Assembly (NCBI GenBank): GCA_964450605.1
Contig: CAYVEK010000003.1
Span: 32,778 to 96,777 of the forward strand
Length of the DNA stretch: 64,000 bases
From: an uncultured Candidatus Saccharibacteria bacterium
GTDB lineage: Bacteria > Patescibacteriota > Minisyncoccia > Phycocordibacterales > CAIZLB01
Reading direction: 5' to 3'
Each line of letters starts with the position of its first letter. The stretch's first letter is position 1. Shown here one piece after another: positions 9,475 to 55,806 of this stretch. The notes beneath the pieces were generated by a model. The model searched no databases, was not told where the DNA came from, and was given only the letters and a program-made list of their open reading frames with translations. The translations under genes and the position numbers were made by a program.

Positions 9475-10026
9475 TTACTCCATCCAACGTCTAAATCCAT
9501 AAAACCTTTGTGGTATAAGGCTAAAAAGTATCTTTGATCCATCGAGTGGGGGTATAGGCATCAGGTTAAATAGAGCCAAAACGACGTTTATAACGACCGC
9601 TATGGCACAGAAACTGACCATAAATTCACCAATAGTCACTGTTTTAAGGATAGTCAGAAATACGGCAGCTATTATAATGTTTGTCAAAGGACCTGCTGCT
9701 GCCACGAAAGCTTCCCCAAAACGTTGATTTTTAAAGTTATATGGGTTTATTGGTACCGGTTTTGCCCAACCAAACATGATAGGACTACCACTTAAAGTGA
9801 ACAAAATAGGTAAAAATACAGAGCCTATAGGGTCTATATGAGGAATAGGGTTCAAGGTCAGCCGTCCTGCGTCTTTGGCAGTAGGGTCACCTTGCCATAA
9901 AGCAGCGATGCCGTGTGCAACCTCATGAGCAATAATAGATACTATAAGTATAAGTAGTCCTGTAAGTGTCATGGGGTCAGTATAGCATTTGCCAGAGCAA
10001 AAAATCCATGCTAATATGACTCCCAT
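9475..10026 (-). CDS. Site-2 protease family (peptidase M50) membrane metalloprotease.
   Basis: HEVAHG (HExxH) within a TM helix and a downstream NLMPIPPLDG motif. The true start is probably the internal Met at 9972 (MTLTGLLILIV...), which would avoid overlap with rpmB. Confidence 0.75.
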   Translation of the reverse strand: MGVILAWIFCSGKCYTDPMTLTGLLILIVSIIAHEVAHGIAALWQGDPTAKDAGRLTLNPIPHIDPIGSVFLPILFTLSGSPIMFGWAKPVPINPYNFKNQRFGEAFVAAAGPLTNIIIAAVFLTILKTVTIGEFMVSFCAIAVVINVVLALFNLMPIPPLDGSKILFSLIPQRFYGFRRWME

Positions 10027-10270
10027 GTCAAAAGTTTGCGCAATTACAAAAAGAGGATCTATAAACGGTGGCGGATATTCTAACCGAACTCGTGCGACTC
10101 AATTTAACCATACAGGTCACCGACGACGATACGCTAACCTACAGAAGAAAAAGATTTTTGTTCCTGAATTGAACAAAACTGTAACTCTTACTCTTTCTAC
10201 ACGAGCTATCAAAACTATTCAGAAGAATGGTGCGTATGCAACTCTACAGAAAGCTGGTCTTCTAAAATAA
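10025..10270 (+). CDS. rpmB: 50S ribosomal protein L28.
   Basis: MSKVCAITKRGSINGGGYSNRTRATQFNHTGHRRRYANLQKKKIF... matches L28 (MSKVC..G..N.SHA.N.T.R...NLQK). The start was moved to the third Met of the tracked ORF. Confidence 0.85.
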   Translation: MSKVCAITKRGSINGGGYSNRTRATQFNHTGHRRRYANLQKKKIFVPELNKTVTLTLSTRAIKTIQKNGAYATLQKAGLLK

Positions 10271-11221
10271 TCACTCAAAGGTATATATAATATTACCTTC
10301 CCGAAAAGTCTCTCTGATCAAGAGAGGCTTTTTGCGTCTTTGATCATATACACGATTCATGACCTCTTTGTGAGGGTGACCATATCTATTGTCTCTACCT
10401 GCAGAGACAACAACCTCGCTTGGTGAAACTGCCTGTAAGAATAAAACACTGGATGATGTCTTAGAACCGTGATGCCCGAGCTTGAGAGTGTCAGCTTTTA
10501 AAACACAGTCTTGTCTCTGTATATCGGGTTTAAAACTCTTTGTAGGACAAAATCTCTTAACTAGCTGTTCTTCAACCTTTATAGGTGCATCACCTGTAAG
10601 CAGGAAAGTAGTTGAAGATCCTGCTGTAATCTTGGTTACTATGGAAAACTGATTGTCATCGAGCTTTTTCTTTTTAGGTAAAGAAAGTGTTGATGTCGCC
10701 AGATACATGTTTTCAGATGGAAATAGAATATCTACAGAATAAATACCAAAAGTAAAATGGTCTCCCGTCTGAACCTTGCGTTTATTAAAAGAAAGTTTTT
10801 CTAGTTGGTTTTCAGCCGGTGATTCATCTTTTTGATTTACATCTAAAAATCCATTGTGTAAAACCTCTTTCACCAGCCCTCGTTCTATAAGCCTAGAAGC
10901 TTCACCTATGTGGTCGGTATCTGGGTGGGTTAATAATAGTTTATCTATAGATACAATAGGACAGCCAGTTACACTCTCGATTTGTTCTAAAACTCGTCCA
11001 TCTTTAGGACCTGTGTCTATGAGCATGTTTGAACCGTTTGCATTTTGCATATATATAGAATCACCTTGACCAATATCAAGAAAAGCTAGGAGAGGCTTTT
11101 TGACAGAACATGTTTCATTTTTTTGAAGGTTTTTATACAAGAAAAAGGAGCTACCCGCGACAAGAGCAAGAACAATATAAATAAGGTTGGTTTTGTGTAG
11201 AAAAAGTTTTAGTCCTTGCAT
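10271..11221 (-). CDS. ComEC/Rec2-related metallo-beta-lactamase domain protein: the MBL half of a split ComEC, with its own N-terminal TM anchor.
   Basis: FLDIGQGDSIYMQ..NMLIDTG, LLLTHPDTDHIG, LKLGHHGSKTSS and RYGHPH are the ComEC C-terminal lactamase_B motifs. Confidence 0.8.
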   Translation of the reverse strand: MQGLKLFLHKTNLIYIVLALVAGSSFFLYKNLQKNETCSVKKPLLAFLDIGQGDSIYMQNANGSNMLIDTGPKDGRVLEQIESVTGCPIVSIDKLLLTHPDTDHIGEASRLIERGLVKEVLHNGFLDVNQKDESPAENQLEKLSFNKRKVQTGDHFTFGIYSVDILFPSENMYLATSTLSLPKKKKLDDNQFSIVTKITAGSSTTFLLTGDAPIKVEEQLVKRFCPTKSFKPDIQRQDCVLKADTLKLGHHGSKTSSSVLFLQAVSPSEVVVSAGRDNRYGHPHKEVMNRVYDQRRKKPLLIRETFREGNIIYTFE

Positions 11222-11282
11222 ATATATAAATATAGTATACTGTATCTGTAATAAAGAATTTATAAATAAATCTTAAAGAAAC

Positions 11283-11864
11283 ATGAAATATACAGAAAAG
11301 AAATTTGAAATCCCTGCTCTAGAGGGAATAAGTGCCAAAACCATAGAGGAGCATCTAAAACTTTATGCCGGATATGTTAAACACACAAACCTGATACTGG
11401 AAAAGATCAGTCAATTAGAAACAGAACCTACACCTGAATCTCTGTATGAAATAAACGAACTTCGACGAAGATTAGGATTTGAATTTTGCGGTATGAGAAA
11501 TCACGAATATTATTTTGAACAATTTGAAGGTGGTTTCAAAAAGACAGATGGAACAGCGCTTGAACAAAAAATAATATCGCAGTGGGGTTCAACTGAAAAA
11601 TGGATCACTGAGTTTAAACAACTGGCGATGACTCGAGGTTTGGGATGGGCTGGTTTATACAAAGATACTCACACAGATAATCTTGTAAATGTTTGGATCA
11701 ATGAACAACAAGATGGTCAGCCTACAGGACTTACACCCATACTTATGTTAGACATGTGGGAACATTCATATATGCTTGATGTTCCGCCATCAGAAAAGAA
11801 AAAATACATCGATGCTTTTTTCAGCAACGTGAACTGGGAGACTGTTGCAAAGAGATACGAATAA
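11283..11864 (+). CDS. sod: Fe/Mn superoxide dismutase.
   Basis: C-terminal LDMWEHSYMLD (the D-x-W-E-H metal ligand motif), N-terminal FEIPAL...EEHLKLYAGYVKHTN, and the two-domain SOD layout. Its 3' end overlaps the convergent ComEC-N gene by about 44 bp. Confidence 0.85.
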   Translation: MKYTEKKFEIPALEGISAKTIEEHLKLYAGYVKHTNLILEKISQLETEPTPESLYEINELRRRLGFEFCGMRNHEYYFEQFEGGFKKTDGTALEQKIISQWGSTEKWITEFKQLAMTRGLGWAGLYKDTHTDNLVNVWINEQQDGQPTGLTPILMLDMWEHSYMLDVPPSEKKKYIDAFFSNVNWETVAKRYE

Positions 11865-13185
11865 TAAAAAGTATAGATAAAAAATATAAAACAAGCACAA
11901 CAAGAACCGTGCTTGTTTTCATATATATGTATGCGTATTCAAATTGTGAAAGTTTTTTCACAACAAAGAATATAAACTCAAGCACTTTGTTGTTTATAAA
12001 AACAAACACATCTTTTAACCAACTAAGATTCACAAGACTAAAAACAATTGTTAAAAATCCAAGCAACATAACGATGGGTATAAACGGTAAGACCAAAATA
12101 TTACTCAACAAAAAAACTGTTGAAAAAGATCCAGACATGTACAACAGGTATGGAAACACAAATACTTGAGTCGATAAGGTTACAGCAATAATCTCTATCA
12201 ACCACATCGGCATAAAATGTAAAAAAGAAAATTTTATTTTTTCTGTAAAAAAGTTAGAGAATAAAATAAGTCCAAATGTAGCACAGCAAGTTAAATGAAA
12301 TGACGGATCATACAGAGTTTGAAAAGGTGCAATTGTTGTAAGTAATAAAATGGTTATAGTAAGTGCATACACCTGAGAAGTTTTTTCTGAAAATAAAAAC
12401 AAGCCACAGAACGTACTCGCCACCGCACGATATATCGGAGCTCCTCCACCAACTAACATCATAAAAAACCAGACAAACATTGCGATAAATATTTTTTGGA
12501 AAAACTTTTTTCGACGAAATATTTTATCTGTAATTGTTTTAACACAACCGAGTATCAAACTTACATTTGAGCCAGACAAAACCACAACATGACTTAAGCT
12601 CACTCGTTTAAACATATCCAGCATACTGTTTGTCATCAAACCTTTTCCAGCTATCAACACGCCCGCAACCAAACCACTGTATGGTTGTACATACTCTCTC
12701 AAGAGTATGTCTGTGAATCTTTTTTTCTGTTTCATGAAGAAAAGTTCTAGGGTTTGATAGGGACCTAAACTAGGGCAATTAATTTGTGTTTCATTTACTA
12801 TGATGGCTTGTAATATGAGAAAAACATCATCTTTTGCAAGATATTTTTGATATGGAAATGTATACAAAACATCTTTGGAATCTATATCTTTTGGCTTTGA
12901 AACACGTCCTGAAACATTGATACACTGTCCAAACGTTATTTCGGTAGTGGCCGGGGTAGTGATCTTATACCTATAGCCGGAAACTAGATCATGAGCAAAA
13001 AACTTGTACAAATACCGATCCATAACAACATCCGAATCAATAATAAGAGTACCTTTAAAAGATCCTTCTGTTGCAAGTTTTTGTTTTTGTTCAAAGCTTT
13101 TGTGAGAAAAAATAATCGCAACCAGTGAGCTTATCAATAACACAAAAAATAAAATGTATTTATATTTTGAAATTAAAAAACTCAC
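11821..13185 (-). CDS. comEC: ComEC/Rec2 DNA-uptake channel, N-terminal part (DUF4131/OB domain plus polytopic competence domain).
   Basis: At least 8 TM segments and the GLVAGVLIAGKGLMTNSMLDMFKRVSLSHVVVLSGSNVSLILG competence-domain motif. The MBL domain is encoded separately at 10271-11221. Confidence 0.8.
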   Translation of the reverse strand: MSFLISKYKYILFFVLLISSLVAIIFSHKSFEQKQKLATEGSFKGTLIIDSDVVMDRYLYKFFAHDLVSGYRYKITTPATTEITFGQCINVSGRVSKPKDIDSKDVLYTFPYQKYLAKDDVFLILQAIIVNETQINCPSLGPYQTLELFFMKQKKRFTDILLREYVQPYSGLVAGVLIAGKGLMTNSMLDMFKRVSLSHVVVLSGSNVSLILGCVKTITDKIFRRKKFFQKIFIAMFVWFFMMLVGGGAPIYRAVASTFCGLFLFSEKTSQVYALTITILLLTTIAPFQTLYDPSFHLTCCATFGLILFSNFFTEKIKFSFLHFMPMWLIEIIAVTLSTQVFVFPYLLYMSGSFSTVFLLSNILVLPFIPIVMLLGFLTIVFSLVNLSWLKDVFVFINNKVLEFIFFVVKKLSQFEYAYIYMKTSTVLVVLVLYFLSILFIIRISLQQSPSSRC

Positions 13186-13252: not shown

Positions 13253-13786
13253 TTATTGTCTCCAGTTTGAGAAAACATCGTTATAAAAATATTTTTCTTC
13301 TCCATCAATAAGAGCCTCGTCATCTGCACATGTCGTTGCGATCTCATCAGCGCGAGCATTGAAGACGTTGTCGCTATGACCCTTAACATACGTCCACTTT
13401 ATGGTGTGACCGGCTTGCTGTATCTCGAGCACAAGAGCATCTAGCTTTTTCCAAAGATCTTGATTTAAAACTTCTTTTTTTGCAGAAGTTTTCCAATTAT
13501 TTTTTTTCCAACCATGTATCCATTCTGTTATACCTTGTAGTACATATTTTGAATCAGCAAAAACATGTATGTTTTTTAAACCAAAAGTATTTTCAGAATA
13601 AGCTAAAGACAGCCCATGAATAGCGCCTTCGAGTTCCATTTTATTATTTGTAGTGTATTCACTTTTACCACCAACTTCCAAAACTTTTTCTTTTCCAAAA
13701 ACAACTATGCAAGCCCATCCGCCCGGACCTGGATTTCCACGAGCTGCGCCATCGGTATATATAGTAATAGTGTCAGAAGTAAACAT
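13253..13786 (-). CDS. rnhA: Ribonuclease HI.
   Basis: IYTDGAARGNPGPGGWA, ELEGAIHGL, ADSKYV and HSDNVFNARADEIA. Confidence 0.9.
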   Translation of the reverse strand: MFTSDTITIYTDGAARGNPGPGGWACIVVFGKEKVLEVGGKSEYTTNNKMELEGAIHGLSLAYSENTFGLKNIHVFADSKYVLQGITEWIHGWKKNNWKTSAKKEVLNQDLWKKLDALVLEIQQAGHTIKWTYVKGHSDNVFNARADEIATTCADDEALIDGEEKYFYNDVFSNWRQ

Positions 13787-13795
13787 GTACCCATC

Positions 13796-15571
13796 TTACA
13801 CCTTACGCTCAAGCTTTTCTACCCGGACACGCACCTCTCGTTTTCCCAAGAAAAAGCTCTCTTCGATAAAACCATATACATCTAACACCTCCTCGACTGG
13901 GGCATTCAAAAGTGTTTCATCTGCAAAAAAGGTTATGTATCGAACAGGAGTGGTTTTGAATCTTCCTGTTGTGTATTTGTATGTGTCCTGTAAAAAATCA
14001 GGAGTTGGTTTTTTAATAACGCCTTCTGAATCTATAAAGTGTTCAATCATAAACTCAGCATGCTCTTTTTCTTTTCCAAATTTTTTAACTTCTCTCAATA
14101 CCACTCCTGCTATTTTAAACAACGGCTTTTCATTTGCTATACCAAAAGGACGAAGGTTGTTCAGATTGGATATAAAAGACTCGTTTATAGTATCGTGACT
14201 TATAGTGTAGATACAGGTTTCTTCTGATGACTGAACTTCTGCAACCTGTCCTTCAGAAGATTCTTTCCATTTTGTAAAAGCCTGTTCCAACTCAGACTCA
14301 AAGACATCAACTTTATCTTTTGTAAAAGCAAAACCTCCCGACAGAGCATGGCCTCCAAACTCTTCAAAAAAATCTTGTGTAACATGTCCCATGATATCTA
14401 CCAAACTGAAACCTGGAATAGATCGACATGAACCACGAAAAACATCTCCATCCTCGCAACCATATACGAAAACCGGCTTTTGAAACTTTCGTACCATGTT
14501 ACTCGCCACAGGACCAACCAGTGTAGGGGACCACTGTTCATCACCTACTATTAGTATGTTTTTATCATTAACAGAAACTGTATCAACCTTTTTTTCTGCT
14601 GATTTTATAAGATCTTTGGCTTTTTCTTTTCGAGACTTGTTGAGAGTAACCAGATGACGAGCTTGTTTCACTGCTTCAACAGCATTACCTCCAGATAATA
14701 GATGAAACGCATCAAGTGCATGAGACATACGAGAAGCGGCATTTATACAAGGACTTATAGAAAAACCAATATCATCTTCTTGGATATCTTTTACCTGTAA
14801 TTTTAATTCAGCCAAAAGACTTTGAAGTCCTAGACGTCGTCCTTTTTGAAGAACCTTAAGTCCATAGACTGCAAAGACACGATTCTCACCAGTCAGTGGA
14901 ACCATGTCTGATATAGTCGCCAAACCAACCATGTCCAATAACCACTTCTCCCAACCAGGAGCTATTGTATATCCTTTTGTTCGAGCTTGTGCGACCAGTC
15001 TGTGTATCAACTTATACATCACGCCGGCACCGCAAAGCATTTTTTCACCATATCGGCAATCTTCTTGTTTTGGATTTAAAATCGCATATGCTTTTGGCAA
15101 CTCACCATGTGGCATATGATGATCTGTGATAATCACATCTATACCTAAACTATTTGCATACTCAACCTCATCAACTGCTGATATACCAAGATCCATAGTT
15201 ATGATAAGTGTCACCTCCAGATCTCTAGCTTTATCTATGAGATGTTTATGTAAACCAAAACCGTCTTTATGTCTGTGAGGTATGAGCACCTCTATATGAT
15301 CGCTGTAACCTATTTTATTAAAAAAATCATATGCAATAGTGGCCGACGGAACACCGTCAGCATCATAGTCAGCATACAAACAGATCTTTTCTTTATTTTC
15401 TATCGCTTTCCAAATACGATCTGTAGCTTTATCTATATCTTTCATTCTAGATACATCAAACATCCCCCCTTTTTCTTCATCATACACAGGATTAAGAAAC
15501 TCCTCGATCTGACCCTTCGTCAAACCTCTGTCTTTCAGTATTCGCAGATGTACAGGAGTATCTTCATACAT
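13796..15571 (-). CDS. recJ: Single-stranded-DNA-specific exonuclease RecJ (DHH family).
   Basis: ADYDADGVPS, ITMDLG and IITDHH DHH/DHHA1 motifs; 591 aa. Confidence 0.9.
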   Translation of the reverse strand: MYEDTPVHLRILKDRGLTKGQIEEFLNPVYDEEKGGMFDVSRMKDIDKATDRIWKAIENKEKICLYADYDADGVPSATIAYDFFNKIGYSDHIEVLIPHRHKDGFGLHKHLIDKARDLEVTLIITMDLGISAVDEVEYANSLGIDVIITDHHMPHGELPKAYAILNPKQEDCRYGEKMLCGAGVMYKLIHRLVAQARTKGYTIAPGWEKWLLDMVGLATISDMVPLTGENRVFAVYGLKVLQKGRRLGLQSLLAELKLQVKDIQEDDIGFSISPCINAASRMSHALDAFHLLSGGNAVEAVKQARHLVTLNKSRKEKAKDLIKSAEKKVDTVSVNDKNILIVGDEQWSPTLVGPVASNMVRKFQKPVFVYGCEDGDVFRGSCRSIPGFSLVDIMGHVTQDFFEEFGGHALSGGFAFTKDKVDVFESELEQAFTKWKESSEGQVAEVQSSEETCIYTISHDTINESFISNLNNLRPFGIANEKPLFKIAGVVLREVKKFGKEKEHAEFMIEHFIDSEGVIKKPTPDFLQDTYKYTTGRFKTTPVRYITFFADETLLNAPVEEVLDVYGFIEESFFLGKREVRVRVEKLERKV

Positions 15572-31023: not shown

Positions 31024-31060
31024 TTATATGTATTTAAAGAACAATCGTAACAGTATAATG

Positions 31061-31131
31061 TGCGGGATAAGAGAATCGAACTCTTGTCTACTGCTTGGAA
31101 GGCAGTCATTCTACCACTAAACCAATCCCGC
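31061..31131 (-). tRNA. tRNA-Gly (anticodon UCC).
   Basis: Hand-folded: acceptor GCGGGAT/ATCCCGC, D-arm GTTT-AGTGGTA-GAAT, anticodon stem ACTGC/GCAGT with loop CTTCCAA, T-arm AAGAG-TTCGATT-CTCTT. No encoded CCA. Confidence 0.85.
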
Positions 31132-31169
31132 TTTCTTATTTCAAATCTGGTATAATACTAGCAAAATAT

Positions 31170-32237
31170 ATGCAAATACTCAAGCAGATAAAAGAACATA
31201 TTATAGCCACAGCACTTATACTTATCTGTCTATTTTTTGTATCTTTTATTGCCTCATCGGAGAGGTTTAGAACAAGCCTAAGTACAAATCTTGCAGCAGT
31301 TATTAATAGCAACAAAAAAGGCCAGGGCACCATAGAAGATTATGTATTAAACATATTTTGTACAGAGAGATACAAGACTTACATCAAAGCAGTGAGTGGA
31401 AGTGGAGTTTTTTTATCTGACCCTGACGAAAATACAGGTATTATCCTTACAAACGCCCATGTTGCGAGACATTTGCTCGATGGAAAGAAAAAGTGTGTAG
31501 GCAGAACAGGAAGTCCTGCAGTAACCACTCATAATCTTGTTCTGAGATATATACCGAGCTACTGGCTGGATGAACATAATCAGTATGTTATAGGAGATCC
31601 TGACAAAAGCTCTACTGGAGAATTTGACTTTGCACTTATAGAAGTTAAACGTATAAAAGAAAAAACCGCTTCAAATACAAATATTTACTCAACATTCAGG
31701 CAGAAGCTTCAGGTAAAAGTTAATGACTATAAGCCTAATTATTTTGCAAATATAGATCACTATATCTACTCTTACCCCGCCCAAAAAACACTTTCAGTAT
31801 CTATATACTCCCCTTTGTACAGAAAAAAGGATCGCGTTGAGATCGGTGATATATTCCAAAGTCCTACTCTCAGAACAGAAAACAGTTTACTAGATGCTAT
31901 AGGTTCATCAAATGTAGACCATGGTTCATCAGGAGGTATGATGTTGGCTGTTGATACTTCTTTTTCTTTGGTTGGACTATCAAGTATTTTGATACATGAA
32001 AATAGCCCACAAACGGTCAGAATCGTTACTATGAGACATGTATTTGATGTATTACAAAATGAACTAAAAAACTCTACAGCGCCACAAATAGAAGGCTTTA
32101 AACCGATAATTGCAGATATATTAACAAAAACAAAGATAGACAAAGATATTTACTCAGTATTAAAGAATCAAAAGTTAACAAGTGTACTTGAGAAAAATAC
32201 TCGAGACACACTAGTTAAACTAAACATAATCAAATAA
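31170..32237 (+). CDS. Membrane-anchored trypsin-like (S1 family) serine protease.
   Basis: Catalytic triad in order: ILTNAHV (His), DFALIEV (Asp), GSSGGMM (GxSGG Ser), with an N-terminal TM helix. The start was moved from 31095 to the internal Met at 31170, because 31095 overlaps tRNA-Gly. Confidence 0.7.
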   Translation: MQILKQIKEHIIATALILICLFFVSFIASSERFRTSLSTNLAAVINSNKKGQGTIEDYVLNIFCTERYKTYIKAVSGSGVFLSDPDENTGIILTNAHVARHLLDGKKKCVGRTGSPAVTTHNLVLRYIPSYWLDEHNQYVIGDPDKSSTGEFDFALIEVKRIKEKTASNTNIYSTFRQKLQVKVNDYKPNYFANIDHYIYSYPAQKTLSVSIYSPLYRKKDRVEIGDIFQSPTLRTENSLLDAIGSSNVDHGSSGGMMLAVDTSFSLVGLSSILIHENSPQTVRIVTMRHVFDVLQNELKNSTAPQIEGFKPIIADILTKTKIDKDIYSVLKNQKLTSVLEKNTRDTLVKLNIIK

Positions 32238-32250
32238 TATGAGATGAAAA

Positions 32251-32326
32251 TGGTCGGAGCGCTGGGATTCGAACCCAGAGTCACATCAGCCCAAGTGATG
32301 CATGTTAGCCGTTACACCACGCCCCG
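32251..32326 (-). tRNA. tRNA-Pro (anticodon UGG), with CCA encoded.
   Basis: Hand-folded: acceptor CGGGGCG/CGCTCCG (one G-U pair), anticodon stem CATCA/TGATG with loop CTTGGGC, T-arm CTGGG-TTCGAAT-CCCAG, 3' ACCA. Confidence 0.8.
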
Positions 32327-32354
32327 TTCTGAGAACAATACTACCACAACACCC

Positions 32355-32855
32355 TCAGATTAACAAATTTATATTTTGATAATATTTATGTAGTTTAAAG
32401 CTTTTTTCGGGTTTTTCAGATACCCCTACTCCAAGCCGATCAGAATCTACCACTTTTATAACTATTACTAAATCGATATGGAGATTAAAAAACAGCTTTT
32501 CTGAACAATCTCTTTGAAGCTGTTCAACCAGAAGACTGACAGCACCTGGTCCAAAACGTATGTATTTTGATATCTTGTTTTTTAAACCCAGTGTCTGAAG
32601 GCTTACATACTCATATTCACCAGATCGTATATCACGTGTTTTGACCTCTATAAGTCTTATATCTACCTTGTCCTTATGGATCTTATAGACAATAAGGTCT
32701 ATCTCATACCCCAATCCTTTTACATTTGTTGCAAAAACTTCAAAACCTCTAGATTTCATAAAGTCCAATACAAACAACTCTCCCTTGGTTCCGAGAGTTT
32801 TGTCGGTCAACACCTCCTTTGTATTTGGACGCATATAAGACTTATCCATACCCAA
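32355..32855 (-). CDS. yraN: UPF0102 (YraN) family endonuclease-like protein.
   Basis: GELFVLDFMKSRGFEVFATNVKGLGYEIDLIVYK...IEVKTRD. The true start may be an internal Met. Confidence 0.7.
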   Translation of the reverse strand: MGMDKSYMRPNTKEVLTDKTLGTKGELFVLDFMKSRGFEVFATNVKGLGYEIDLIVYKIHKDKVDIRLIEVKTRDIRSGEYEYVSLQTLGLKNKISKYIRFGPGAVSLLVEQLQRDCSEKLFFNLHIDLVIVIKVVDSDRLGVGVSEKPEKSFKLHKYYQNINLLI

Positions 32856-33050
32856 ATACTAGCAATACAGTGTTAAAGATTATCCAAAGAATTTATAAAG
32901 AATCTATAAAATACTTATAAAATAAGATTAAAAATCTCTATCTCATAGATAAAATCTATAAGTCGTGCTAAATAATGTCTTTTATACACATATCCCCAAA
33001 GTTATCCACATTTTGTCTTATATATCCACCCATCTGTCTCAAAACAATTG

Positions 33051-33121
33051 TGCGGATAGAGAGAATCGAACTCTCGTCTCATCCTTGGCAAGGACGTATT
33101 CTACCACTAAACCATATCCGC
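33051..33121 (-). tRNA. tRNA-Gly (anticodon GCC).
   Basis: Hand-folded: acceptor GCGGATA/TATCCGC, anticodon stem CGTCC/GGATG with loop TTGCCAA, T-arm GAGAG-TTCGATT-CTCTC. Confidence 0.85.
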
Positions 33122-33139
33122 TTTGTCTTTTTGTCTTTG

Positions 33140-33211
33140 TGCACCCACCAGGACTCGAACCCAGAACAACGGTTCCGAAGACCGATGTGATATCCATTTC
33201 ACCATGGGTGC
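33140..33211 (-). tRNA. tRNA-Arg (anticodon UCG).
   Basis: Hand-folded: acceptor GCACCCA/TGGGTGC, D-arm GTGA/TCAC, anticodon loop CTTCGGA, T-loop TTCGAGT. Confidence 0.75.
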
Positions 33212-55730: not shown

Positions 55731-55802
55731 GGCGATTATAGTTTAGTGGTAAAACCCAGGTTTGTGGATCCTGTGTCGAGAGTTCGATTCTCTCTAATCG
55801 CC
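55731..55802 (+). tRNA. tRNA-His (anticodon GUG) with an encoded G-1 opposite C73.
   Basis: Hand-folded: extra 5' G, then acceptor GCGATTA/TAATCGC, D-arm GTTT/AAAC, anticodon loop TTGTGGA, T-arm GAGAG-TTCGATT-CTCTC, discriminator C. Confidence 0.85.
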
Positions 55803-55806
55803 CAAT
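55785..55806 (+). repeat. Direct repeat, copy 1 (the 3' end of tRNA-His): cgattctctctaatcgcccaat.
   Basis: An identical 22-mer occurs again at 55919-55940. Confidence 0.8.

What the first reader, a model, noticed from the sequence alone, without database searches (positions are those of the whole stretch)
10271..13185. ComEC split into two genes with a convergent, overlapping superoxide dismutase gene between them.
The ComEC membrane channel part (DUF4131 plus competence domain, 11821-13185) and the ComEC-type metallo-beta-lactamase part (10271-11221) are separate minus-strand ORFs. The MBL part has acquired its own N-terminal TM anchor. Between them, on the opposite strand, lies sod (11283-11864), whose 3' end overlaps the ComEC-N 3' end by about 44 bp.

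DNA uptake is considered central to the nutrition of ultra-small bacteria. A split ComEC with an interposed antisense gene is an unusual arrangement. The convergent overlap also implies possible transcriptional interference between the oxidative-stress response and the competence machinery.
Basis: partly seen in the sequence, partly recalled or inferred. Interest (0 to 1): 0.5.

Follow-up and report, generated by a model that had tools for sequence, protein, structure and literature searches.

The report
Two-gene ComEC with interposed sod gene
The DNA-uptake protein ComEC really is encoded here as two separate genes with a superoxide dismutase gene lying backwards between them, but this layout is the norm across a large group of ultra-small (Patescibacteria/CPR) bacteria rather than an oddity of this genome.

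Summary
ComEC-N (11821-13185, -) carries an OB fold and the channel domain. A 316-aa protein (10271-11221, -) carries one TM helix and a ComEC-type metallo-beta-lactamase nuclease. A Fe/Mn sod gene (11283-11864, +) lies between them and overlaps the ComEC-N 3' end by exactly 44 nt.

- The split is not an assembly error. The MBL protein is on three contigs read, and the same arrangement recurs in 37 of 88 related loci, down to about 31% MBL identity.
- It is lineage-typical. Of 80 species-representative loci, 29 have ComEC-N/antisense sod/MBL, 13 have the halves adjacent without sod, and 7 have another insert. Only 5 are fused, all Firmicutes or Chloroflexota.
- The TM anchor was inherited, not acquired. 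The break falls in the loop before the last TM helix of fused ComEC, and the two halves tile a solved full-length ComEC.
- The overlap is not conserved (+73 to -1128 nt) and fits this compact genome.

Best reading: a functional two-subunit ComEC produced by an old gene fission, with sod lodged at the junction. Published work already noted that CPR ComEC lacks the fused MBL domain. I found no description of the separate TM-MBL subunit gene or the sod position. Modest interest.

The parts
11821..13185 (-). ComEC-N gene: channel subunit. It has one N-terminal TM helix, an extracytoplasmic OB fold, and the helical competence/channel domain ending in the TM10-equivalent helix. Start is GTG 13185 (454 aa) or GTG 13143 (440 aa, one public gene call).
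   Evidence: PF03772 E=6.7e-33; 120 best homologues of 249-607 aa, full-length ones about 400-600 aa, none with an MBL domain; AF2 pLDDT 89.7; profile covers residues 63-489 of full-length ComEC 30bt_A, E=9e-41.
12790..13065 (-). OB-fold (DUF4131-equivalent) coding segment of ComEC-N: residues 27-118 in the 440-aa numbering.
   Evidence: AF2 beta-barrel E27-E118. Profile match to the ComEC OB-fold NMR structure 9iew, E=4.7e-4. Weak Foldseek matches to SSB/RPA/aaRS OB folds. Pfam DUF4131 only E=0.13.
11854..12648 (-). Competence (PF03772) channel domain coding segment: residues 180-444 in the 454-aa numbering.
11821..11864 (.). 44-nt convergent overlap of the sod and ComEC-N 3' ends. It covers the last 13 codons plus the stop codon of ComEC-N, which encode the end of the last helix and a low-confidence tail.
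   Evidence: last 3 residues pLDDT below 50. Overlap length varies among relatives.
11888..11919 (.). GC-containing hairpin 24 nt downstream of the sod stop, inside the codons for the last TM helix of ComEC-N. It is the likely sod terminator. On the minus strand it also matches a terminator pattern.
   Evidence: pattern scan: 3 found versus 2.2 +/- 1.7 expected, so not significant alone. (a stable hairpin after the sod stop in all six relatives examined; in three it lies inside the ComEC-N coding sequence, in three it is intergenic).
11283..11864 (+). sod: Fe/Mn-family superoxide dismutase, cytoplasmic (no TM or signal sequence seen). It is antisense to both ComEC halves.
   Evidence: best PDB match is 1coj (Aquifex Fe-SOD), E=1e-23, and the positions I take to be the His/His/Asp/His metal ligands are conserved in that alignment.
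11222..11282 (.). 61-nt AT-rich divergent intergenic region between sod and the MBL gene. It must hold, or adjoin, both promoters. A TATACT -10-like hexamer lies about 13 nt before the MBL ATG.
   Evidence: a TATACT-like hexamer recurs 5-15 nt before the MBL start in many relatives. Inference only: the sigma-70 scan was not enriched (18 found versus 13.9 +/- 4.2 expected).
10271..11221 (-). MBL subunit gene: N-terminal TM helix (TM11-equivalent), linker, and ComEC-type metallo-beta-lactamase-fold nuclease domain.
   Evidence: TIGR00361 positions 416-652; 120 best homologues all 177-399 aa, none with a Competence domain; AF2 pLDDT 85.9; best structural match 9ic4, ComEC beta-lactamase-like domain, E=2e-20; profile covers residues 521-787 of 30bt_A, E=1e-45.
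11120..11188 (-). Codons for the membrane anchor of the MBL subunit (about residues 12-34). It is positionally equivalent to the TM helix preceding the MBL domain in fused ComEC.
   Evidence: alignment with fused Peribacillus and Anaerolineae ComECs; helix 2-36.
10910..10927 (-). Codons for the ComEC-type metal-binding motif H99-P-D101-T-D103-H104 (HxDxDH).
   Evidence: Invariant in alignment A1, as are D211, H250, H251 and H282. The same HxDxDH form is described for ComEC in PMC12455585.
13253..15571 (-). Context: recJ (13796-15571) and the RNase H gene (13253-13786) lie directly upstream of ComEC-N on the same strand. This neighbourhood is conserved in relatives.

Best explanation
This is a functional ComEC DNA-uptake machine encoded as two polypeptides.

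Subunit 1 (ComEC-N) provides one N-terminal TM helix, the extracytoplasmic OB fold and the membrane channel, up to the TM10-equivalent helix.

Subunit 2 provides the last TM helix of canonical ComEC (TM11-equivalent), the flexible linker and the metal-dependent MBL nuclease. That nuclease degrades the non-translocated DNA strand at the outer mouth of the channel.

The break is an old gene fission in the cytoplasmic loop between the last two TM helices, so both pieces keep their native topology. The fission is characteristic of Patescibacteria.

In a large Paceibacteria/Parcubacteria-type clade, a Fe/Mn sod gene became lodged antisense at the junction and has stayed there. The MBL subunit therefore needs its own promoter, in or next to the short intergenic region it shares with sod. 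ComEC-N sits at the end of a recJ-rnhA-comEC-N string.

The 44-nt 3' overlap with sod, and the sod terminator hairpin inside the ComEC-N coding sequence, are by-products of genome compaction.

Shown: gene structure, homology, split point, conservation, phyletic spread. Inferred: physical assembly of the two subunits, nuclease activity, promoters and terminators, and the direction of the evolutionary events.
For: - ORFs and domains are confirmed.
- The halves are complementary on TIGR00361 (positions 121-396 and 416-652) and on the solved full-length ComEC 30bt_A (residues 63-489 and 521-787).
- The concatenate is 770 aa, against 765-801 aa for fused ComECs. The junction falls in the basic loop before the pre-MBL TM helix.
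- The MBL model best matches the ComEC nuclease-domain crystal structure 9ic4 (E=2e-20).
- HxDxDH and the other conserved Asp/His positions are invariant across 14 homologues down to 33% identity.
- The cryo-EM paper reports that TM10/TM11 are peripheral. It also reports that the MBL domain hangs on a flexible linker and is positioned by contact with the OB fold (PMC13539106). That makes a non-covalent version plausible.
- Conservation: the MBL protein is on three contigs read. The same ComEC-N/antisense-sod/MBL order holds at 65%, 54%, 47%, 42% and 36% MBL identity.
- 37 of 88 loci have sod in between, 13 are split and adjacent, 7 are split with another insert, and 5 are fused (all non-Patescibacteria).
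- The 120 best homologues of each half are single-half proteins.
- Meheust et al. [quoted passage not shown]
Against: - No direct evidence that the two proteins assemble. No multimer prediction was available.
- In 11 Patescibacteria loci with enough upstream sequence, no ComEC-N lies within about 5 kb of the MBL gene. Linkage is therefore not obligatory, and the MBL protein could also act alone.
- Each half scores below the TIGR00361 equivalog cutoff (103 and 41 bits against 190).
- Promoter and terminator scans are not above chance.
- The NJ tree used to infer history is rough and has no support values.
Confidence: 0.82

Rival explanations
1. The TM-anchored MBL protein is an autonomous surface nuclease or phosphoesterase, for example for scavenging nucleotides from environmental DNA. 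It no longer works as part of the ComEC channel, and its adjacency is a historical remnant.
For: - It must have its own promoter, because sod lies antisense between the halves.
- In 11 Patescibacteria loci with enough upstream sequence, no ComEC-N is within about 5 kb.
- Firmicutes carry standalone ComEC-like MBL paralogues next to no channel gene.
- The next-best structural match is the surface esterase Pce.
Against: - It retains the TM11-equivalent helix and linker at exactly the native position.
- Its best matches are ComEC nuclease domains, by both sequence and structure.
- Linkage to ComEC-N is kept in 57 of the 80 species-representative loci, directly or across one to a few genes.
- ComEC-N keeps the OB fold, which in full-length ComEC positions the nuclease.
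Confidence: 0.12
2. The interposed sod is functionally coupled to competence. sod and the nuclease subunit would be co-regulated from a shared bidirectional promoter region. Convergent sod transcription would dampen ComEC-N expression, linking oxidative stress to DNA uptake.
For: - The sod-MBL divergent pair is tight and widely conserved, with intergenic regions of 20-160 nt in 26 loci.
- The sod terminator hairpin lies inside the ComEC-N coding sequence, so transcripts would overlap by about 100 nt.
- In L023 the sod-MBL pair persists without ComEC-N nearby.
Against: - The overlap is not conserved, ranging from +73 to -1128 nt.
- Other genes occupy the same junction in sister lineages: VTT/DedA, an IS200-like transposase, and unknown ORFs.
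- sod has been lost from the junction in several subclades.
- No shared operator-like motif was found beyond -10-like hexamers.
- The whole PGK...EF-G block is syntenic, so conservation of the sod position may only reflect low rearrangement rates.
Confidence: 0.06
3. The split is an artefact (assembly or frameshift error) or a decaying, disrupted comEC pseudogene.
For: None found.
Against: - The MBL protein is on three contigs read.
- The arrangement is conserved in dozens of species.
- Both ORFs are intact, with invariant catalytic and channel residues across deep divergence.
- Both predicted structures are confident.
Confidence: 0.01

Closest known systems
Canonical three-domain ComEC/Rec2 (e.g. 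B. subtilis ComEC; cryo-EM and crystal structures 30bt, 9vc6, 9ic4, 9iew)
   Same: - It has the same three modules in the same order: OB fold, competence channel, MBL nuclease.
- It has the same HxDxDH metal motif.
- The two window proteins tile residues 63-489 and 521-787 of a solved full-length ComEC.
   Different: - It is encoded as two polypeptides, broken between the last two TM helices.
- It has only one TM helix before the OB fold instead of three (compare PMC13539106).
- An unrelated antisense gene separates the two genes.
CPR/Patescibacteria ComEC family without a fused MBL domain (Meheust et al. 2019, PMC6744442)
   Same: This locus is a typical member. [quoted passage not shown]
   Different: In the passages I read, the paper does not report three things. 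It does not say that the MBL domain persists as a separate TM-anchored gene next to the channel gene. It does not give the split point. It does not mention the sod gene at the junction.
ComEC variants that lack the nuclease domain and use another nuclease or an unknown mechanism (H. pylori ComEC without MBL; S. pneumoniae ComEC with a likely inactive MBL, plus EndA)
   Same: The channel protein lacks a covalently attached active nuclease. There is a single N-terminal TM helix, as predicted for H. pylori ComEC.
   Different: Here the cognate ComEC-type nuclease is retained, with intact metal ligands and its native membrane helix, as a neighbouring gene. It has not been lost or replaced.
Fe/Mn superoxide dismutase (SodA/SodB family; closest solved structure Aquifex pyrophilus Fe-SOD, 1coj)
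   Same: It has the two-domain Fe/Mn SOD fold by sequence. The positions I take to be the four metal ligands are conserved. SOD is common in Patescibacteria from oxic groundwater (PMC8672522).
   Different: The N-terminal domain is divergent (Sod_Fe_N is below the Pfam cutoff). Its conserved genomic position inside a split comEC has no known functional meaning.

Membership tests
ComEC/Rec2 DNA internalisation protein | Polytopic competence/channel domain (PF03772) | tested here: met
   E=6.7e-33, 114.6 bits against a cutoff of 23, residues 180-444 of ComEC-N. Profile match to solved full-length ComECs, E=9e-41.
ComEC/Rec2 DNA internalisation protein | Extracytoplasmic OB fold (DUF4131, PF13567) N-terminal to the channel | tested here: met
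   Pfam alone fails (E=0.13). However, the family profile matches the ComEC OB-fold structure 9iew (E=4.7e-4). The AF2 model shows a beta-barrel at residues 27-118. More distant homologues carry PF13567.
ComEC/Rec2 DNA internalisation protein | C-terminal ComEC-type MBL nuclease domain with HxDxDH and downstream Asp/His ligands | tested here: met
   H99-x-D101-x-D103-H104, D211, H250/H251 and H282 are invariant. The best structural match is 9ic4 (E=2e-20). Profile E=1.4e-47 to 9ic4.
ComEC/Rec2 DNA internalisation protein | All domains on one polypeptide (TIGR00361 equivalog, cutoff 190 bits) | tested here: not met
   The two halves score 103.3 and 40.6 bits separately, both below the cutoff. 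They are two ORFs separated by an antisense gene.
ComEC/Rec2 DNA internalisation protein | Mediates ssDNA import and strand degradation (transformation phenotype, nuclease activity) | not testable with these tools
   Needs genetics or biochemistry.
Patescibacteria-type split ComEC (arrangement defined here) | Separate channel gene and TM-MBL gene, with the break in the loop before the last TM helix | tested here: met
   (the junction aligns with those of the adjacent-split loci L031, L054, L064 and L079). (37 + 13 + 7 split loci).
Fe/Mn superoxide dismutase | Sod_Fe_N + Sod_Fe_C domains with His, His, Asp, His metal ligands | tested here: met
   Sod_Fe_C E=4.3e-24. Sod_Fe_N scores 24.1 bits, just below the 27 cutoff. 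The full-length alignment to 1coj has the positions I take to be the ligands conserved.
Intrinsic (rho-independent) terminator | GC-containing hairpin followed by a T-tract, downstream of a stop codon | tested here: inconclusive
   The hairpin at 11888-11919 fits the pattern on the minus strand. A hairpin follows the sod stop in all six relatives examined. The scan is not enriched over shuffles (3 found versus 2.2 +/- 1.7), and no transcript data exist.

The most novel reading that the evidence does not exclude
The sod-MBL divergent pair could be a selected regulatory module. Oxygen or superoxide-responsive transcription from the shared 61-nt region would co-induce SOD and the extracellular nuclease subunit. 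Convergent sod transcription, terminating inside comEC-N, would lower channel-subunit expression. Oxidative conditions would thereby shift the cell from DNA import towards extracellular DNA degradation. The evidence does not exclude this, but nothing specifically supports it.
Probability: 0.06. Interest if true: 0.6.

Novelty: new variant of a known kind. Interest (0 to 1): 0.3.

Why it matters
ComEC is the universal inner-membrane DNA importer, and its first full-length structures are very recent. A naturally split ComEC is widespread in Patescibacteria. Its nuclease keeps only the last TM helix and linker. This is a natural experiment showing that covalent linkage of the nuclease to the channel is dispensable.

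It also fits the structural finding that the nuclease hangs on a flexible linker and is positioned by the OB fold.

There is a practical annotation point. Reports that CPR ComEC 'lacks' the MBL domain should be read as 'encodes it separately'.

The sod gene at the junction is a useful synteny marker for a large Paceibacteria-type clade. At present it has no demonstrated functional meaning. For this particular window the arrangement is ordinary for its lineage.

Tried and rejected
- Assembly or frameshift artefact: rejected.
- 'Acquired' TM anchor: rejected by alignment with fused ComECs and by mapping onto solved ComEC.
- Pfam detection of DUF4131 in the window protein failed (E=0.13). It was replaced by a profile-to-PDB search and AF2 evidence.
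- Foldseek of the ComEC-N model against the PDB gave only weak OB-fold matches.
- A search for a conserved operator in 26 sod-MBL intergenic regions found only -10-like TATACT hexamers.
- Promoter and terminator pattern scans were not above shuffled expectation.
- Rfam and tRNA scans found nothing in the locus.
- Four literature searches found no description of a separate TM-MBL gene or of sod inside comEC. Only the statement that the fusion is absent in CPR turned up.
Full report
OBSERVATION. The three ORFs exist exactly as described.
- MBL part: 10271-11221 (-), 316 aa.
- sod: 11283-11864 (+), 193 aa.
- ComEC-N: 11821-13185 (-), 454 aa from a GTG start. One public gene call uses the in-frame GTG at 13143, giving 440 aa.

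The sod and ComEC-N 3' ends overlap by 44 nt (11821-11864).

Pfam finds Competence (PF03772, E=6.7e-33) in ComEC-N and Lactamase_B (E=5.6e-12) in the small protein. In sod it finds Sod_Fe_C (E=4.3e-24) plus a sub-threshold Sod_Fe_N.

Against the full-length ComEC model TIGR00361, the two proteins match complementary parts. ComEC-N matches positions 121-396 and the MBL part matches positions 416-652 of 663.

Pfam does not detect DUF4131 (E=0.13), but the OB fold is present. A profile of 30 homologues matches the solved ComEC OB fold 9iew (E=4.7e-4). The AlphaFold2 model (pLDDT 89.7) shows one N-terminal TM helix, a beta-barrel at residues 27-118, and a helical channel domain.

IS THE SPLIT REAL? 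Yes. The MBL protein is on three contigs read.

Relatives whose MBL protein is 65%, 54%, 47%, 42% and 36% identical carry the same gene order: recJ - RNase H - ComEC-N - antisense sod - MBL - (L28) - M50 - S12 - S7.

The 120 best homologues of the MBL part are all 177-399 aa, with no Competence domain. The 120 best homologues of ComEC-N are 249-607 aa (full-length ones about 400-600), with no MBL domain.

HOW WIDESPREAD? I scanned one genome per GTDB species with an alignment of the MBL proteins. That gave 80 loci. I classified them with HMMs built from the window proteins.
- 29 have ComEC-N, antisense sod, then MBL. With the 8 close relatives this makes 37 of 88 loci.
- 13 have the two halves as directly adjacent but separate ORFs. 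These include loci labelled Sungiibacteriota and Uhrbacteria.
- 7 have something else in between.
  - L011, L014, L015 and L021 have an antisense 196-202-aa membrane protein. The L011 copy matches a VTT/DedA domain.
  - L047 has an IS200-like transposase.
- 2 have sod upstream of MBL but no ComEC-N seen.
- 5 are fused: Peribacillus (2) and Anaerolineae/Anaerolineales (3).
- 24 have only the MBL gene within the flanks.
  - 10 are Firmicutes paralogues.
  - 14 are Patescibacteria, of which 3 have too little upstream sequence to judge.

A rough NJ tree of the MBL domains puts the sod class throughout one large Paceibacteria/Parcubacteria-type clade. That clade contains scattered sod-less and VTT-replaced subclades. 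The fused Anaerolineae sequences group near the adjacent-split Patescibacteria (no support values).

WHERE IS THE BREAK? I aligned the concatenated halves (770 aa) with fused ComECs (765-801 aa). The junction falls in the short basic loop between the last helix of the competence domain and the TM helix that precedes the MBL domain in the fused proteins. The adjacent-split Patescibacteria loci break at the same place.

On the solved 801-aa ComEC 30bt_A, the ComEC-N profile covers residues 63-489 (E=9e-41). The MBL profile covers residues 521-787 (E=1e-45).

The membrane anchor of the MBL protein is therefore the native last TM helix of ComEC, inherited at the fission. It is not a new acquisition.

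The cryo-EM paper describes 11 TM helices, with TM10 and TM11 peripheral to the channel. It describes the MBL domain as joined by a flexible linker and positioned through a small interface with the OB fold (PMC13539106). That makes a non-covalent version mechanistically plausible.

ARE THE PARTS FUNCTIONAL? The MBL model (pLDDT 85.9; helix 2-36, then an alpha-beta/beta-alpha fold) best matches the ComEC nuclease-domain crystal structure 9ic4 (E=2e-20). The next-best match is the esterase Pce.

The ComEC-specific HxDxDH motif (H99, D101, D103, H104) and D211, H250/H251 and H282 are invariant in homologues down to 33% identity. The motif form matches that described in PMC12455585.

The SOD aligns end to end with Aquifex Fe-SOD 1coj (E=1e-23). 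The positions I take to be the His/His/Asp/His metal ligands are conserved in that alignment.

THE OVERLAP AND TRANSCRIPTION. sod is antisense, so the MBL gene cannot be a simple operon partner of ComEC-N. It is separated from sod by a 61-nt AT-rich divergent region. TATACT-like -10 hexamers recur 5-15 nt before the MBL start in many relatives, and I found no shared operator-like motif.

A hairpin at 11888-11919 lies 24 nt after the sod stop, inside the codons for the last ComEC-N helix. A comparable hairpin follows the sod stop in all six relatives examined. In three of them it is embedded in the ComEC-N coding sequence, and in three it is intergenic. It is probably the sod terminator. The pattern scans themselves are not above chance.

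The overlap is not conserved. It ranges from +73 to -1128 nt and is positive in 11 of 37 loci. Its ComEC-N side encodes the end of the last helix and a low-confidence tail.

Within this window, coding density is about 92% by my greedy ORF selection. The nine convergent gene pairs have gaps of -18, 0, -44, 64, 0, 117, 50, 4 and 3 nt. rpmB abuts the MBL stop with a 0-nt gap, and a terminator-like hairpin lies inside the MBL coding sequence.

The overlap is best read as compaction. Transcriptional interference is possible but unsupported.

COMPARISON WITH WHAT IS KNOWN. Meheust et al. [quoted passage not shown] Pimentel and Zhang 2018 catalogued competence-domain proteins with and without each domain (PMC6299819).

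Source annotations already call some members of both families 'competence protein ComEC' or 'ComEC/Rec2 family'.

In four full-text searches I found no statement on three points:
- that the missing domain persists as a neighbouring TM-anchored gene;
- where the break lies;
- that a sod gene occupies the junction across a large clade.

In cultivated Saccharibacteria, the com genes did not contribute significantly to fitness in Tn-seq, and a comEC deletion mutant was viable but could not be transformed (PMC10633639). This tempers the 'nutrition' premise.

VERDICT. The locus is a normal member of a Patescibacteria-wide two-gene ComEC, with the clade-typical sod at the junction.

As a class, this is a modestly new variant of a known system: a two-subunit ComEC broken before TM11. 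As a feature of this window it is ordinary. Interest 0.3.

The source organism is an unnamed Patescibacteria (Parcubacteria/Paceibacteria-type) genome. The closest labelled relative is a 'Candidatus Parcubacteria bacterium' MAG, at 53% MBL identity (L009).

Noticed in passing
window 13253-15571 (-): recJ (ssDNA exonuclease, 13796-15571) and an RNase H gene (13253-13786) lie directly upstream of ComEC-N on the same strand, with gaps of 9 nt and 67-109 nt. The string recJ-rnhA-comEC-N is conserved in all close and distant relatives examined, which suggests a DNA-processing operon.
   Followed up: partly
window 10016-10334: rpmB (L28, + strand) ends at 10270 and the MBL gene's stop codon begins at 10271, a 0-nt convergent gap. 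A terminator-like hairpin on the + strand (10302-10334) lies inside the MBL coding sequence. This is the same design as at the sod/ComEC-N junction. In L004, L006 and L007 the two genes overlap by 4 nt.
   Followed up: partly
window 13075-13143 (-), ComEC-N residues 2-23: ComEC-N has only one predicted TM helix before the OB fold, where the cryo-EM ComEC has three. The profile alignment starts at about residue 63 of 30bt_A. The cryo-EM paper says the same of H. pylori ComEC. This looks like a second reduction of the protein in this lineage.
   Followed up: partly
L011 4265-4879 (-), also L014, L015, L021: In a Yonathbacteria-type subclade, an antisense membrane protein of 196-202 aa occupies the ComEC-N/MBL junction where sod sits elsewhere. 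The L011 copy matches a VTT/DedA domain (PF09335, E=6e-13). The junction seems to tolerate different antisense genes.
   Followed up: partly
L004 4740-5246 (+), L009 3707-4252 (+): An extra sense-strand ORF of 166-179 aa, with no Pfam match and a hydrophobic N-terminus, lies between ComEC-N and sod in two relatives at about 54% MBL identity.
   Followed up: no
L047 4085-4810 (+): An IS200-like Y1 transposase (PF01797, E=4e-9) is inserted between the two ComEC halves in one Patescibacteria MAG.
   Followed up: no
L068 (JBLHQB010000006.1): A contig labelled 'Patiriisocius sp.' (Flavobacteriaceae) carries the Patescibacteria-type ComEC-N/sod/MBL locus, which suggests a binning contaminant. Many loci labelled 'uncultured Candidatus Saccharibacteria' (TPA assemblies) group with Paceibacteria-type sequences, so those labels should be treated with caution.
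   Followed up: no
L004 12544-12933 (+): A Cas Csx3 (PF09620) gene lies about 5.6 kb downstream of the MBL gene in one relative's contig.
   Followed up: no
window 31060-33211 and 55732-55803: There are five tRNA genes (Gly-tcc, Pro-tgg, Gly-gcc, Arg-tcg, His-gtg). No other Rfam family was found anywhere in the 64-kb window.
   Followed up: yes
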